64,000 nucleotides of DNA from Candidatus Hodarchaeota archaeon (GTDB lineage Archaea; Asgardarchaeota; Lokiarchaeia; Sigyniarchaeales; SOKP01). A program made the translations under genes and the position numbers. This document shows, one piece after another, positions 42,733 through 61,165 of the stretch. The notes under the pieces were generated by a model. The model was given only the letters and a program-made list of their open reading frames with translations. It was not told the DNA's origin and did not search any database. Location of the stretch: assembly GCA_048886685.1 (NCBI GenBank), contig JBHLKM010000001.1:160001-224000 (forward strand), in the 5' to 3' direction. Position 1 is the first letter of the stretch; each line of letters opens with the position of its first letter.

Positions 42733-44238
42733 TTAGACTTCTTTACTTCTTTTTAGACTTTTTATTATAAATCGAGAGCTAATTGTAATAATAGAGATTG
42801 CAGAAAATATTAAGATGATAACTATAAAATCATATCCCGAAATAAGGATGTCTGGAGGGCTTTCAACCAATTTTACTAGACATATATCATTACCCCCTGC
42901 TCCAAAGCTTTTTGTAAAACCGGAAATATATATGTTTCCTGAAAAGTCCAAAGCTATGCTAGTTGCTACATCATTTTCATCTCCACCCCAGTTAGTGTAA
43001 GAAATTAAAGAACCAAAACTGTTATAAATTAAAATTGTCATATCAGCCCGAGATGTTATAGGCAGTATTACATTTCCTGCAAGATAAATATTATCTTTTG
43101 AATCAATTGTAATATCAACGAATTCATCATAGTTATATTTATCCCAAGTTTGGTTCCACAATCTTACACCTAAATTATTATATTTTACTAAAAAAATATC
43201 AGACCATTCATCATCAGGACTGTTTCCCCTTACATTACCCCCGATATAAATATTATCAGAGGAATCTATAGCAATTTTCATAAAAAATACCCTCGGCGAT
43301 CTCCTCCATGTAGTGTTCCATAATTGGATCCCCGTAGGATCGTATTGCATCAGATATAAATCCATTTCATCGATACTATAGTTCGAAGATAAGATAAAAA
43401 GGTTATCTAAGGAATCAGTTGCTATTTGTGGAATTTGAGCAGCACCAATTCCTTCCATTGTATGACTCCATTGCAGATGACCGGTCATATTAAATTTCCA
43501 GATATGGAATTCCTCAGTGTCTGCCCCATTTAAAGTAGTACCGCTAATATAGATATCATCAACGGAATCAATTGTAATTATAGACTCACTAAGATCACTA
43601 ATATAACCCCATGTATGAATCCATTCCAAATCACCTGAACTGTTAAATTTTATTAATAAAATATTATCAGTTAGATCTGTTGTGTTTTCTGTCTTTCCTA
43701 AAAGATAAATGTTATTCATTGAATCTAATACTATTTCTGCTATGATTGAATCCCCATCTCCACACCAGATATAATCCCATTGTAAATCATCTGAACTGTT
43801 GAATTTTTTTAGATAAATTGCGTCAGTGTCTCCAGTAATGTTTCTCGTTCGTCCTGTTATATATATATTATTTTGTGAATCTAAAATAGCTCTACTGAAT
43901 GGGTTATCTCCTTCTTTTCCCCAGGAATAGTTCCATAGTAGTTCACCATTACTATTATATTTCAGTAGACATGGATAAGGCATTCCCGAACCATTAATAT
44001 AGCTAATTCCCGATAAATAGACATTATTCAATGAATCTATGTTTATTTCGATCCCTCTATCATCATGTGTATATCCCCATGTGCGAAACCAAGCAGTATT
44101 AAGTGAATTTGGTCCAGATATAAGAGGTTCATAATTCAAATTAGGATTATTAAATATTAAATTAGTTTCTTGGAGTAGTACACTGGAACACAAGCCAAAA
44201 ATAAATAGCATTAGAATATAGTTTCTATTAGATTTCAT
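42733..44238 (-). CDS. Cell-surface SBBP/beta-propeller repeat protein with C-terminal membrane anchor
   Basis: Signal-like N-terminus, repeated IDSxxNIYxxG...LLKFNSSGxLxW units, C-terminal ISGY+TM+basic tail. Confidence 0.8.
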   Translation of the reverse strand: MKSNRNYILMLFIFGLCSSVLLQETNLIFNNPNLNYEPLISGPNSLNTAWFRTWGYTHDDRGIEINIDSLNNVYLSGISYINGSGMPYPCLLKYNSNGELLWNYSWGKEGDNPFSRAILDSQNNIYITGRTRNITGDTDAIYLKKFNSSDDLQWDYIWCGDGDSIIAEIVLDSMNNIYLLGKTENTTDLTDNILLIKFNSSGDLEWIHTWGYISDLSESIITIDSVDDIYISGTTLNGADTEEFHIWKFNMTGHLQWSHTMEGIGAAQIPQIATDSLDNLFILSSNYSIDEMDLYLMQYDPTGIQLWNTTWRRSPRVFFMKIAIDSSDNIYIGGNVRGNSPDDEWSDIFLVKYNNLGVRLWNQTWDKYNYDEFVDITIDSKDNIYLAGNVILPITSRADMTILIYNSFGSLISYTNWGGDENDVATSIALDFSGNIYISGFTKSFGAGGNDICLVKLVESPPDILISGYDFIVIILIFSAISIITISSRFIIKSLKRSKEV

Positions 44239-44795: not shown

Positions 44796-45328
44796 ATGAG
44801 TACTAAAGGAAAAGTAACTGTTAAAGCCCTTGTGACCGGTGGAAGTGCGTCAGGTGGACCGCCTATTACATAAAACATATCGTTTTTGTGAATTTTGGCA
44901 AAGGTCCAGCAGTTGGTCCAACAGGAATAAATATCAAAGATGTTGTCGACGAAATCAACGCACAAACGATGGTATTTAAAGGCTTAACAGTACCTGTCAG
45001 GATAGAATGTGATCCAGAAACAAAACAATTTGAAATTTTTATTGAAACACCTTCCACAGCCTCATTATTACTTAAAGAAGCCGGTGTAGAAAAAGGAAGT
45101 TCAGCATCTTCGGAAACTAAAATCGGTAATCTCACAATTGACCAGATTATTAGCGTTGTTGAAGCAAAGAAAGATAGGTTTCTAGATAAAAATTTTAAAA
45201 AAGCTGTTAAAACAGTTTTAGGGACTGCCTTATCTGCTGGAATAACTGTTGAGGGAGAGGATCCCAGAGAAATTCAAAGAAGAATAGAAAGGGGAGAATA
45301 TGACGAAAAAATCAGGGGTGAATTATAA
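44796..45328 (+). CDS. rpl11: 50S ribosomal protein uL11, split gene: join(44796..44866,44902..45328), 165 aa
   Basis: Exon 1 MSTKGKVTVKALVTGGSASGGPPI and exon 2 GPAVGPTGINIKDVV...TPSTASLL...GTALSAG lie in different frames and join to give the conserved GPPIGPA motif. Confidence 0.9.
44867..44901 (+). other. Candidate BHB-type intron in rpl11 mRNA (35 nt)
   Basis: Outer stem TGGACC/GGTCCA, central helix GCCT/TGGC, bulges ATT and AAA, inner hairpin ACA(T)AAAAC/GTTTTTGT, in-frame TAA at 44871. Confidence 0.78.
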
Positions 45329-45330
45329 AA

Positions 45331-46059
45331 GTGAAAGTAGATGATAAATTGTTAAGAAGATCTTTAAATGCAGCTATAGATTTTTCAGTAATTAAAAAGG
45401 AGGGATTTAAAGATAAGATACGAAAATTCGATGAATCTATTGATCTTATCATTAATATTAAAGATGTTAATCTAAACGACCCAAAAAATAGAATTGATAA
45501 AGAAATTATCCTTTCGAACGAAGTAATTACAGAGAATAAACCTAATATATGTGTTATTGCTTCTGACGAAATATTACTCGAAGCAAAAAAGATTGGTGTT
45601 GATACTCTTGATTTAGATGGATTAGTTAAACTAAATAACGAAGAAAAGAAGTATAAGAAGAAATTTGCCAAAAAATATGAGTATTTTGTTGTCGAAGATA
45701 AAATGATGCGTGATGTCGCTCGTTATTTAGCAAGATTTCTTGGTCCTTTAGGTAAAATGCCAAAACCCTTCCCTACTGGCTATGGAATAATCTCTAGTCC
45801 GGATGATTTGAAAGTCGCCTTTGATAGGTATAAGAAGGTAATTCGTGTTCAAATGAAAAAACAACCTATCATTTTTGCAAAAATAGGAAAAAAATCAATG
45901 GAATTTGATAAATTATTTGAAAATATGAAAACGGTCGTAAATTTTATAGGAGATCAAATGCCACATAAATTCAATAACTTTAAATCGATATATTTAAAGT
46001 CTACTATGGGAAAACCAGTAAAAGTAACTGAAGATTTTTTAAAGAGTATAGAGGTGTGA
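45331..46059 (+). CDS. rpl1: 50S ribosomal protein uL1
   Basis: RKFDESIDL, LGPLGKMP, KSTMG. Follows rpl11. Confidence 0.95.
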   Translation: MKVDDKLLRRSLNAAIDFSVIKKEGFKDKIRKFDESIDLIINIKDVNLNDPKNRIDKEIILSNEVITENKPNICVIASDEILLEAKKIGVDTLDLDGLVKLNNEEKKYKKKFAKKYEYFVVEDKMMRDVARYLARFLGPLGKMPKPFPTGYGIISSPDDLKVAFDRYKKVIRVQMKKQPIIFAKIGKKSMEFDKLFENMKTVVNFIGDQMPHKFNNFKSIYLKSTMGKPVKVTEDFLKSIEV

Positions 46060-46063
46060 AAAA

Positions 46064-46951
46064 ATGATCAAAAAACAACATATACCTCAATGGAAATTAG
46101 ATGAAGTTAACAATCTAGTTGAATTGTTTAAAACCTATAATAATGTTGCTGTTATAGAAGTTGCTCATATCAATGATAAGCAAATTCAGTCAATGCGTAA
46201 GATTTTAAGGGGGAAGGCGGTATTTCGTATGTCTAAAAAATCCCTACAACTTCGAGCGATAGAACAATACAAAAAAGAGTCAAAAAAAACAAATTTAGAT
46301 GAACTAGCAATACATATTCCTGGTCAATCAAGCCTAGTTTTTACGAATCTTGATCTAATAGAATTAAAGGAGATCTTCCATGACTACGAATGGATGGTTC
46401 CGGCAAAACCAAATGAAATCACATCTGTAGATATTTGGGTGCCTGCTGGAGATACAGGATTACCAACTGGTCAAGTTATTAGTGAATTGAATATGACTTT
46501 AAAACTCCCTACAAGAATAATGAATGATACAATACACATTCGAGAAGATACAAGAACACATAAAGCAGGCGATTTGGTTACTGTAAAACAAGCCGCCGTA
46601 CTAAAAAAACTGGGTATAACACCAATAGAATCATTGATTAAAATCCATTTTGCTTGGAGTGATGGAGAAATTATTCCAAAAGATATCCTATATATGGATT
46701 TGAACAAATTTAAACAGGATATCGCTACTGGATATAGGCAAGCACTCGCTATTCTCTTTGAAATGCCCGTTTTTGAAGAAAGTATGACTAAAGATTATAT
46801 TCGGAAAGCTGTTTCTGAAGCTAATACACTGGATGCGATGATATTTGGAGAGGGATTAGCGGTGTCTGCCGAACTTGAAACTAAAGTTGAAGAAAAAGAA
46901 GCTGAAGAAGAGCCCGAGGAAGAAGTTGGGATTGGAGGATTATTTGGATAA
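46064..46951 (+). CDS. rpl10: 50S ribosomal protein uL10 (P0)
   Basis: PQWK, PAGDTGL, acidic tail ending GIGGLFG. Confidence 0.95.
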   Translation: MIKKQHIPQWKLDEVNNLVELFKTYNNVAVIEVAHINDKQIQSMRKILRGKAVFRMSKKSLQLRAIEQYKKESKKTNLDELAIHIPGQSSLVFTNLDLIELKEIFHDYEWMVPAKPNEITSVDIWVPAGDTGLPTGQVISELNMTLKLPTRIMNDTIHIREDTRTHKAGDLVTVKQAAVLKKLGITPIESLIKIHFAWSDGEIIPKDILYMDLNKFKQDIATGYRQALAILFEMPVFEESMTKDYIRKAVSEANTLDAMIFGEGLAVSAELETKVEEKEAEEEPEEEVGIGGLFG

Positions 46952-47026
46952 TTATTAAGATTTTTTTAAATTTCAATTAAAATTACAAATATAATGGTAA
47001 AAAAAGTATAAAAGAGGTTAGATAAT

Positions 47027-47314
47027 ATGGAAAGTATTTATGCTGCATTATTGCTTCACAAGGCTGGAGGAAAAATTACAGAGGCCAATGTAGAAAAGGT
47101 ATTAACTGCTGCCGGTGCGAAAGCCGATAAAACAGAAATTGCGAAATTAATTGCTGGCTTGAAAGGAACAAACATCGAAGATATCATTAAATCTGCTGGC
47201 ACTATGCCTGTAATGGCTGCTCCAGCTGCTGAAAAGAAAGAAGCAAAGAAAGAAGAGAAGAAAAAAGAAGAAGAAGTCGAAGAAGAGCCTACGGGGATAG
47301 GAAGTCTTTTTTAG
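47027..47314 (+). CDS. rpl12: Ribosomal stalk protein P1 (archaeal L12)
   Basis: IYAALLLH, Ala/Glu-rich hinge, GIGSLF. Confidence 0.95.
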   Translation: MESIYAALLLHKAGGKITEANVEKVLTAAGAKADKTEIAKLIAGLKGTNIEDIIKSAGTMPVMAAPAAEKKEAKKEEKKKEEEVEEEPTGIGSLF

Positions 47315-49789: not shown

Positions 49790-49890
49790 CGCAGACAGAG
49801 GGATTCGAACCCTCGAGTGCATTCACACACTGGCTTTCTGGGAATATTTCCGCTCCAAGCCAGCGCCGTACCGGGCTAGGCAATGTCTGC
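49790..49890 (-). tRNA. tRNA-Ser(GGA) with 17-nt canonical 37/38 intron (49836..49852)
   Basis: Acceptor GCAGACA/TGTCTGC, G73, anticodon stem CTGGC/GCCAG, long variable arm, BHB helix TTGG/CCAG. Confidence 0.92.
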
Positions 49891-61072: not shown

Positions 61073-61165
61073 TGGCGGCCCTCGAGGGGAATCGAACCCC
61101 TATCCCTCCGCAGGATAACTGGGTTTGAAGCCCAGTGTCAGAGACCACTCTAACCGTCAAGGGCC
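61073..61165 (-). tRNA. selC: tRNA-Sec(TCA), 9/4 fold, CCA encoded
   Basis: Acceptor GGCCCTTGA/TCGAGGGCC (9 bp), D-stem GTTAGAG/CTCTGAC with 4-nt loop, anticodon TCA, long variable arm, 4-bp T-stem, G73-CCA. Confidence 0.95.

What the first reader, a model, noticed from the sequence alone, without database searches (positions are those of the whole stretch)
44796..45328. Candidate splicing-endonuclease (BHB-type) intron inside the ribosomal protein uL11 mRNA
Seen: the uL11 N-terminus (ATG 44796, MSTKGKVTVKALVTGGSASGGPPI) hits TAA at 44871. The rest of the protein (GPAVGPTG...) resumes at 44903 in another frame, so 35 nt are inserted in the conserved GPPIGPA motif. The junction folds like an archaeal intron: exon-exon stem TGGACC(44855-60)/GGTCCA(44903-08), central helix GCCT(44861-64)/TGGC(44896-99) with 3 G-C pairs and a U-U, 3-nt bulges ATT(44865-67) and AAA(44900-02), and an internal hairpin ACA(T)AAAAC/GTTTTTGT. 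The 5' side is relaxed because GAATTT(44890-95) is unpaired. Cutting after the second nt of each bulge (the EndA rule) removes 44867..44901 and gives CCG CCT ATA GGT CCA = P-P-I-G-P, an intact 165-aa uL11. Established: EndA/RtcB-spliced mRNA introns in archaea are classically known from crenarchaeal cbf5. Inference: this organism splices the first gene of the L11-L1-L10-P1 operon with tRNA-splicing machinery, so unspliced mRNA yields only a 25-aa peptide. This could couple ribosome synthesis to splicing activity and bears on intron origins at the archaea-eukaryote boundary. I cannot check whether it has already been described.
Basis: partly seen in the sequence, partly recalled or inferred. 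Interest (0 to 1): 0.95.

Follow-up and report, generated by a model that had tools for sequence, protein, structure and literature searches.

The report
tRNA-type mini-intron splits Asgard uL11 gene
The only gene for ribosomal protein uL11 in this Loki-type Asgard archaeon is broken by a 35-base insert shaped like the introns archaea cut out of tRNAs, so its messenger RNA very probably has to be spliced; the papers I could search report this inside an archaeal coding sequence only for cbf5.

Summary
uL11 is single-copy and split. Exon 1 (44796-44866) runs into TAA at 44871. Exon 2 resumes at 44902/44903 in another frame.

Comparison makes it a real intron. Of 47 same-genus species, 22 have a contiguous gene. 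The rest carry 28-37-nt inserts at three sites (A, B and C; a fourth, D, in one metagenome contig). This window has site B only. One orthologous site-B insert folds as a textbook hBHBh' motif. Across 58 distinct inserts, cutting after the second base of each bulge restores the invariant protein every time; other registers fail at sites A and C. Pairing covaries, and exon 1 is under purifying selection. The genome encodes two EndA paralogues and RtcB. I also confirmed ~30-nt inserts in purA, PFK and rnhB.

Presence is very patchy between sister species, which argues against a conserved regulatory role.

This scan had already noted the same rpl11 introns in sister genomes and other mRNA introns in this genome.

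The parts
44796..44866 (+). rpl11 exon 1: ATG plus 23 codons plus AU of the split Ile codon. Unspliced, the frame ends at TAA 44871-73.
   Evidence: Identical to the N-terminus of intronless relatives. pN/pS is about 0.06 against the G003 orthologue (1 nonsynonymous and 7 synonymous differences).
44855..44860 (+). Exon-exon helix H1, 5' strand (UGGACC). It pairs with 44903-44908.
   Evidence: MFE fold. 89% of cells are paired in 18 orthologues, and 2 pairs show double changes.
44861..44864 (+). Central helix, 5' strand (GCCU, exon). It pairs with 44896-44899 as 3 G-C pairs plus U.U.
   Evidence: The core is 3 of 4 pairs here and 4 of 4 in 6 of 18 orthologous inserts.
44865..44867 (+). 5' splice-site bulge/loop AU|U. 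The predicted cut is after 44866.
   Evidence: Register test. The loop is relaxed because 44890-95 is unpaired.
44867..44901 (+). 35-nt intron, with boundaries set by the EndA rule.
   Evidence: Absent from 22 of 47 congeners; present with sequence changes in 18 distinct orthologous versions.
44868..44889 (+). Intron hairpin ACAUAAAAC-AUAUC-GUUUUUGU.
   Evidence: 91% of cells paired; 3 pairs keep pairing through changes on both sides.
44890..44895 (+). Unpaired spacer GAAUUU. It makes the 5' side of the motif relaxed.
   Evidence: The spacer is missing in the 29-nt near-canonical version L105 and in the 31-nt canonical version L035.
44896..44899 (+). Central helix, 3' strand (UGGC, intron).
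44900..44902 (+). 3' splice-site bulge AA|A. The predicted cut is after 44901.
   Evidence: A 3-nt bulge in the MFE fold. It reads AAA in 17 of 18 orthologues and UAA in 1.
44902..45328 (+). rpl11 exon 2: A of the Ile codon, 141 codons and TAA.
   Evidence: Pfam PF03946 positions 17-58 and PF00298. Only one copy in the genome.
45331..47314 (+). The rest of the operon: uL1 (45331-46059), uL10/P0 (46064-46951) and P1 (47027-47314). All are uninterrupted.

Best explanation
The 35 nt at 44867-44901 are an archaeal bulge-helix-bulge-type intron in the rpl11 pre-mRNA. Exon sequence encoding G-P...G-P (GGACC/GGUCC) forms the outer helix. GCCU/UGGC forms the central helix. The 3' splice site sits in a canonical AAA bulge, and the 5' site sits in a relaxed loop next to an intron hairpin. 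The heteromeric (alpha-beta type) splicing endonuclease cuts after the second base of each bulge and RtcB joins the exons. The result is an mRNA for an intact 165-aa uL11 (...GGPP-I-GPAVG...). Unspliced RNA can give only a 25-aa peptide, or an N-terminally truncated protein. Shown here: the anatomy, homologous inserts, conservation of pairing, the register, selection on both exons, and the presence of the enzymes. Inferred: cleavage and ligation in vivo, and which enzymes do it. The intron is one member of a fast-turning-over population of 28-37-nt introns at four sites in the first ~110 nt of rpl11 in this family. It also belongs to a wider set of ~30-nt mRNA introns in this genome.
For:: rpl11 is single-copy; of 47 congeners, 22 are intronless, 12 have C only, 4 B only, 4 A only, 3 A+B and 2 A+B+C. 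Independent assemblies therefore carry diverged orthologous inserts; the site-B insert of G065 (L035) folds, MFE equal to centroid, into 5-bp H1 / 3-nt bulge / 4-bp helix / 3-nt bulge / 9-bp H2; there are 18 distinct site-B inserts of 29-36 nt; 88.5% of cells are paired against 26-55% when partners are slid; 6 pairs have changes on both sides; 0 of 500 shuffles reach the score; cutting after the second bulge base restores GPTGINIKD in 27/27 (site C), VTGGSASGG in 13/13 (site A) and GGPPIGP in 18/18 (site B). Cutting after the third base fails in 4/27 and 5/13, and after the first in 17/27, 12/13 and 18/18; exon 1 is under purifying selection among carriers; two EndA-family ORFs (198 aa with the Y..H..K pattern; 200 aa lacking the His) and one RtcB; a tRNA-Ser 5 kb away has a canonical 17-nt BHB intron with the same AAA 3' bulge; purA, PFK (two inserts) and rnhB of this genome carry ~30-nt inserts inside invariant motifs; for purA and rnhB I showed that the same rule repairs the motif. 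PMC2738675 states that the cbf5 intron often has a relaxed motif and that heterotetrameric endonucleases cleave relaxed motifs outside tRNA. PMC5829648 assigns Asgard archaea an (alpha-beta)2 EndA with the L1 insert.
Against: This particular copy does not meet the strict motif: the central helix has 3 pairs plus U.U, and the 5' cut site lies in a 4 x 7-nt internal loop. In the MFE fold U66/U67 are even paired. At site B the register cannot be told from the protein, since AUU and AUA both give Ile. The z-score of the fold alone is modest (-1.9 to -2.4). No pair of contigs identical except for the intron was found.
Confidence: 0.88

Rival explanations
1. The insert is not removed. Translation restarts at GTG 44888 and the cell uses a 146-aa uL11 that lacks the first strand and the GGPP loop. 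Exon 1 would then be a leftover or a separate small peptide. This is how gene callers annotate it.
For: An ORF 44888-45328 exists. Public databases hold many 146-160-aa 'L11' proteins that start inside this insert.
Against: Exon 1 is conserved at the protein level while synonymous sites change. It is identical to the N-terminus of intronless relatives. The in-insert start differs between carriers (GTG, ATG, TTG; MKFGK, MRFGK, MSNYGK, LLNIGK...), so it is not conserved as a start. No GGTGA-like ribosome-binding motif precedes 44888, whereas relatives have GGTGA 7-8 nt before the exon-1 start. This reading does not explain the pairing covariation.
Confidence: 0.04
2. The ribosome bypasses the 35 nt during translation (a gene-60-like hop or another recoding event) without any RNA cleavage.
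For: A stop codon (UAA) follows two codons after the gap start, and a hairpin lies in the gap. Superficially this resembles T4 gene 60.
Against: There are no matched take-off and landing codons: AUU or CCU before the gap, and AAA or GCA before the resumption. Three further sites in the same gene and inserts in purA and rnhB all obey the EndA bulge geometry and register. Bypassing predicts none of this. A canonical BHB sits at the same site in G065.
Confidence: 0.03
3. The RNA is cut and rejoined, but by machinery other than EndA/RtcB, for example an unknown nuclease that recognises the hairpin, or a different ligase.
For: The 5' site is not in a canonical bulge. Intron hairpin loops share a Y-ANNUC-G pattern, which could be a separate recognition signal.
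Against: The two-bulge, 4-bp geometry and the second-base register are what EndA specifies, and they hold in 58 of 58 inserts. The loop pattern is not enriched in the genome (202 against 300 in the reversed control).
Confidence: 0.04
4. Assembly artefact or decaying pseudogene.
For: The genome is a MAG with 8% estimated contamination.
Against: The same insert, with substitutions, occurs in independent assemblies and in JGI metagenome contigs. rpl11 is single-copy and essential. Both exons are under purifying selection.
Confidence: 0.01

Closest known systems
BHB intron of the cbf5 pre-mRNA in Desulfurococcales and Sulfolobales (Watanabe 2002; Yokobori 2009, PMC2738675)
   Same: [quoted passage not shown] The host has a heteromeric splicing endonuclease. 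Lineage-specific loss occurs, and genome annotation gets the gene wrong.
   Different: The gene (a ribosomal protein) and the phylum (Asgard, not Thermoproteota) differ. The cbf5 paper describes a single intron per gene, whereas rpl11 here carries up to three (four sites known). Turnover is far faster: sister species differ, against two inferred losses for cbf5. cbf5 splicing was shown experimentally; this one was not.
BHB intron in the 5' UTR of HVO_1309 of Haloferax volcanii (PMC7714728)
   Same: An mRNA substrate of the tRNA splicing endonuclease, found as a circular excised RNA and cleaved in vitro.
   Different: It lies in the untranslated leader and does not interrupt the reading frame. 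It is 46 nt long, and the host is a euryarchaeon with a homodimeric-type enzyme.
Non-canonical and multiple tRNA introns of Asgard archaea and Thermoproteales (PMC11291895; bioRxiv 10.64898/2026.10.13.758758; PMC5829648)
   Same: The same size range, relaxed motifs at unusual positions, several introns per gene and repeated gains. The same enzymes are presumed. A tRNA-Ser in this window has a 17-nt example.
   Different: Those are in tRNA genes. None of these papers reports inserts in protein-coding genes.
HAC1/XBP1 unconventional mRNA splicing in eukaryotes (IRE1 plus tRNA ligase/RtcB)
   Same: Spliceosome-independent removal of a short intron from an mRNA, with RtcB-type ligation that changes the reading frame (my own knowledge; RtcB/XBP1 is mentioned in PMC8718801).
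   Different: A different nuclease (IRE1) and a different motif (two stem-loops). It is a regulated stress response, and nothing here indicates regulation.

Membership tests
Archaeal BHB (splicing-endonuclease) intron, strict hBHBh' form | Two 3-nt bulges on opposite strands, separated by exactly 4 bp and flanked by helices on both sides | tested here: not met
   In this window the central helix has 3 pairs plus U.U, and the 5' site lies in an internal loop because GAAUUU 44890-95 is unpaired. The strict form is met by the orthologous site-B intron of G065 (L035) and nearly met by L105.
Archaeal BHB intron, relaxed form (hBH / BHL-like) | At least one canonical 3-nt bulge next to the central helix, with the other cut site at the equivalent distance in a loop | tested here: met
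   The AAA bulge 44900-02 lies between a 6-bp exon helix and GCC/GGC. It is conserved in 18 of 18 orthologues.
Archaeal BHB intron | Cleavage after the second base of each bulge yields the functional product | tested here: met
   This register restores the invariant protein in 58 of 58 distinct inserts at sites A, B and C. The alternative registers fail at A and C. Site B alone cannot separate second-base from third-base cuts.
Archaeal BHB intron | Pairing is maintained by compensatory change | tested here: met
   6 pairs with changes on both sides and 0 of 500 shuffles reaching the score. One search covers site C. One search shows site A UGGG/CCCA changing to AGGG/CCCU.
Archaeal BHB intron | The host encodes a splicing endonuclease able to cut relaxed motifs ((alpha-beta)2 or epsilon2 type) and an RtcB ligase | tested here: met
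   Two PF01974 ORFs are present; by eye, one has the catalytic Y/H/K pattern and one lacks the His. One PF01139 ORF is present. I did not examine the L1 specificity loop or heterotetramer formation.
Archaeal BHB intron | Excision and exon ligation occur in vivo (spliced junction, linear or circular excised intron) | not testable with these tools
cbf5 intron (orthologous element) | Located in cbf5 at the conserved crenarchaeal position | tested here: not met
   The host gene is rpl11. The mechanism is analogous, but this is not the same element.
Group I / group II self-splicing introns | A ribozyme core of hundreds of nt | tested here: not met
   The insert is 35 nt. Rfam finds only two tRNAs in the window.
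Programmed translational bypass (T4 gene 60 type) | Matched take-off and landing codons flanking the gap | tested here: not met
   AUU/CCU before the gap against AAA/GCA after it.

The most novel reading that the evidence does not exclude
In this family of Loki-type Asgard archaea, splicing of messenger RNA by the tRNA machinery is routine rather than a curiosity. Essential genes (rpl11, purA, PFK, rnhB and others) carry ~30-nt introns that are gained and lost so fast that sister species differ. The same site can be occupied by unrelated intron sequences (the G065 form against the common site-B form). This would imply an active, site-selective insertion or transfer process, and a need to keep translation away from unspliced RNA in the closest prokaryotic relatives of eukaryotes.
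Probability: 0.55. Interest if true: 0.92.

Novelty: new member of a known kind. Interest (0 to 1): 0.8.

Why it matters
Inside an archaeal coding sequence, endonuclease-type splicing is documented in the papers I could search only for cbf5 of Crenarchaeota. One 5'-UTR case in Haloferax is also known. Here an essential ribosomal protein gene of an Asgard archaeon depends on it, and this is one of many such genes.

If RNA data confirm it, three things follow. (1) Asgard gene catalogues are systematically wrong at such sites; public databases already hold dozens of truncated 'L11' proteins that start inside this intron. (2) Cells without a nucleus must cope with ribosomes meeting unspliced mRNA 71 nt after the start codon. 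(3) Gain and loss of protein-gene introns can be watched at the species level in the lineage nearest to eukaryotes, which makes questions about how introns spread directly testable.

It does not by itself link these introns to spliceosomal ones.

Tried and rejected

(2) Spliced transcripts hidden in protein or contig collections. I found no 165-aa protein identical to a truncated carrier. I found no pair of loci identical except for the insert; the closest pairs are 96.5-96.7% identical.

(3) Genome-wide scan of G000 for BHB motifs whose removal fuses two ORFs. Counts in the correct register equal those in shifted registers (for example 1641 against 1541-1607), because neighbouring genes on one strand swamp the signal. 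My thresholds even excluded the rpl11 site. The scan is useless as a census and I used it only for motif frequencies.

(4) Hairpin-loop (Y-ANNUC-G) guided scan. There is no enrichment (202 against 300 in the control; 8 against 8 by register), although it turned up the rnhB intron.

(5) A repeated or mobile source copy. BLAST of the introns against G000 gives only 14-18-nt chance matches. The G065 intron occurs once in G065.

(6) Considered and rejected: assembly artefact, pseudogene, restart at GTG 44888, translational bypass and self-splicing intron (see the rival explanations).

No support was found; the intron is absent from about half of the congeners.

Full report
OBSERVATION. From ATG 44796 the frame reads MSTKGKVTVKALVTGGSASGGPPIT and stops at TAA 44871. 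The remainder of uL11 is open in another frame up to 45328. It matches Pfam Ribosomal_L11_N only from profile position 17, plus the whole C-domain. uL1, uL10/P0 and P1 follow, all uninterrupted. The genome (4.4 Mb, 47 contigs, 31% G+C) has a single rpl11. Public proteins nearest to it are labelled Promethearchaeota / Lokiarchaeia MAGs.

Unconstrained folding of 44845-44918 gives the 6-bp helix UGGACC/GGUCCA, then GCC/GGC, with AAA 44900-02 as a 3-nt bulge and an intron hairpin. The 5' side is an asymmetric loop (z = -1.9, or -2.4 on a slightly different stretch). The order helix / central helix / 5' bulge ... central helix / 3' bulge / helix is the topology of real tRNA BHB motifs. A tRNA-Ser(GGA) 5 kb downstream (49790-49890, minus strand) shows it with a 17-nt intron and the same AAA 3' bulge.

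COMPARATIVE EVIDENCE THAT IT IS AN INTRON. I collected rpl11 from all 52 species genomes of the genus. The 5' end was recovered in 47.
- 22 have a contiguous gene.
- 12 carry a 28-nt insert at site C (GIN|IKD).
- 4, including this window, carry only site B (PPI|GP).
- 4 carry only site A (GGS|ASGG, 36-37 nt).
- 3 carry A+B, and 2 carry A+B+C.

A fourth site (29 nt, PAV|GPTG) appears in a metagenome contig (L118). Other genera of the same family also show split matches. 20 genomes of six other families in the class do not, apart from one unexplained in-frame TAA in G068. Independent assemblies and JGI metagenome contigs carry the site-B insert with substitutions: 18 distinct versions of 29-36 nt. 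This excludes an assembly artefact.

STRUCTURE. The site-B insert of G065 (L035, 31 nt) has no sequence resemblance to the common form beyond the central helix. Its MFE equals its centroid, and it folds into a textbook hBHBh': 5-bp exon helix, UAA bulge, 4-bp helix ACCU/GGGU, AUA bulge and a 9-bp intron helix. L105 (29 nt) is near-canonical. The 35-36-nt form in this window is the same hairpin plus a 6-7-nt spacer between the hairpin and the central helix. The window's copy is therefore a relaxed derivative.

On the 18-sequence alignment, 88.5% of cells pair, against 26-55% when the partners are slid. Six pairs keep pairing through changes on both sides, for example A-U to G-C twice in the hairpin. 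None of 500 column shuffles reaches the covariation score (the 8-sequence subset is). Site C has a 4-of-4 central helix in 26 of 27 versions and an 8-bp intron helix with compensatory changes. Site A has 4 of 4 in 13 of 13, including UGGG/CCCA changing to AGGG/CCCU.

REGISTER TEST. The endonuclease rule is a cut after the second base of each 3-nt bulge.
- This rule restores GPTGINIKD in 27 of 27 site-C inserts, VTGGSASGG in 13 of 13 site-A inserts and GGPPIGP in 18 of 18 site-B inserts.
- A cut after the third base gives Thr/Ser/Ile for the invariant Asn in 4 of 27, and Arg for Ser in 5 of 13.
- A cut after the first base fails in 17 of 27, 12 of 13 and 18 of 18.

The third bulge base therefore evolves freely, as intron sequence should. 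At site B the second- and third-base registers both give Ile, so AUA against AUU remains a prediction.

FUNCTIONALITY. Exon 1 is under purifying selection among carriers. The window against G003 shows 7 synonymous and 1 non-synonymous difference, and pooled pN/pS is 0.24. The predicted spliced N-terminus (43 residues) is identical to that of intronless relatives.

The genome encodes two EndA-family ORFs. One (198 aa) has the Tyr/His/Lys pattern, and the other (200 aa) lacks the His. This fits catalytic alpha and structural beta subunits, though I read that by eye. It also encodes one RtcB. PMC5829648 assigns Asgard archaea an (alpha-beta)2 enzyme with the L1 insert associated with broad specificity. 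PMC2738675 notes that the cbf5 intron often has a relaxed motif and that heterotetrameric enzymes cut such motifs outside tRNA.

CONTEXT IN THE SAME GENOME. Following leads from earlier notes of this scan, I checked other genes myself.
- purA has a 30-nt insert inside GDEGKGK. Its bulge rule rebuilds GAC (Asp).
- PFK has two ~30-nt inserts in IGG|DDT and TGGG|DCPG.
- My own hairpin scan found a 30-nt in-frame insert with a TAA inside DEAGR|GP of rnhB. Its helix is UGGU/ACCA, its bulges are AGA and AAA, and the same rule repairs it.

The rpl11 intron is thus one of a class. The scan had already noted rpl11 introns in sister genomes. My survey agrees with those notes and extends them.

DYNAMICS. 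I built a tree from uL1, uL10 and the intron-free part of uL11 (54 rows, 640 columns; quick IQ-TREE, LG+G4, SH-aLRT only). On it, the 9 carriers of A need at least 7 changes, the 9 carriers of B at least 7, and the 13 carriers of C at least 11.

The window's well-supported clade of six holds A-only, B-only (three), C-only and intronless species. Starred sister pairs differ, for example G016 (none) against G065 (B), and G062 (none) against G057 (B). The closest pairs of loci with different intron content are 96.5-96.7% identical in exon 2.

Caveats: the tree is a quick tree of three linked genes, MAGs can be population mosaics, and recombination of the 5' end would give the same pattern. Either way, the intron is dispensable and short-lived. 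No other copy of the intron exists in G000 or, for the G065 form, in G065. All four sites, and the purA, PFK and rnhB sites, lie in Gly/Pro-rich motifs. Their G+C-rich codons can supply stable helices in a 31% G+C genome.

LITERATURE. Eight full-text searches and five papers gave the following. The known cases are cbf5 as the one coding-sequence BHB intron, the HVO_1309 5'-UTR intron, and abundant tRNA introns in Asgard archaea. I found no report of BHB introns in Asgard protein-coding genes. The library is incomplete, so prior description elsewhere cannot be excluded.

WHAT IS MISSING. There is no transcript evidence. My genome-wide census failed, with no register enrichment. The identity of the nuclease and ligase is inferred.

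VERDICT. This is a real, very probably endonuclease-spliced mRNA intron (confidence 0.88). It is a relaxed-motif member of the known BHB kind, in a new gene and a new lineage, and part of a larger unpublished phenomenon in this Asgard family.

Noticed in passing
G000:C2, L141:2745-2775 (minus strand): purA carries a 30-nt BHB-type insert inside the GDEGKGK motif. Cutting after the second base of bulges AGU and AUA rebuilds GAC (catalytic Asp).
   Followed up: partly
G000:C16, L142:1501-2700 (minus strand): The phosphofructokinase gene has two ~30-nt inserts: one in frame with two TAA (IGG|..|DDT) and one between TGGG and DCPG.
   Followed up: partly
G000:C15, around 2958 (minus strand): rnhB (RNase HII) has a 30-nt in-frame insert with a TAA inside DEAGR|GP. 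The central helix is UGGU/ACCA and the bulges are AGA and AAA. The endonuclease rule restores AGRGP.
   Followed up: partly
window 49790-49890 (minus strand): tRNA-Ser(GGA) has a 17-nt canonical BHB intron at 37/38 and an AAA 3' bulge. Rfam finds the gene but ARAGORN misses it.
   Followed up: partly
window 61073-61165 (minus strand): A selenocysteine tRNA gene, so the organism uses Sec.
   Followed up: no
L118:601-760 (JGI contig Ga0315284_10002360): A fourth rpl11 intron site (D): 29 nt between PAV and GPTG, with a hairpin AAUC-AUCUC-GAAUU.
   Followed up: no
rpl11 site A, purA, PFK (two sites), rnhB: The 5' exon ends in GGNAG| at five of the sites examined. This may be an insertion-site preference, or simply a need for G-rich codons to build the central helix.
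   Followed up: no
intron hairpins at sites A-D, purA, rnhB: The loops share Y-ANNUC-G (CAUAUCG, UAUUUCG, CAUUUCG, CAUCUCG, CAAAUCG, CACUUCG). Such hairpins are not enriched genome-wide against a reversed-sequence control (202 against 300).
   Followed up: partly
public protein collections (P0001-P0011, P0015, P0017, P0018, P0026, P0028, P0033, P0056, P0069, P0070, P0079, P0115): Dozens of database 'L11' proteins of 146-160 aa begin inside the site-B intron (MKFGKGP..., MSNYGKGP...). Others of 141-142 aa begin at a miscalled start at the first exon-2 codon (MGPAVGP...). This is systematic mis-annotation of intron-bearing genes.
   Followed up: partly
G068:C128:36979-37398 and G094/G113 (genus g16): rpl11 matches with one in-frame TAA, in another family of the class and in another genus of the family. 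These may be further intron sites.
   Followed up: no
window 42733-44238 (minus strand): A 501-aa ORF with a signal-like N-terminus, many repeats of the type DS..NIY(I/L)(S/T)G and a C-terminal hydrophobic segment, directly upstream of the rpl11 operon on the other strand.
   Followed up: no
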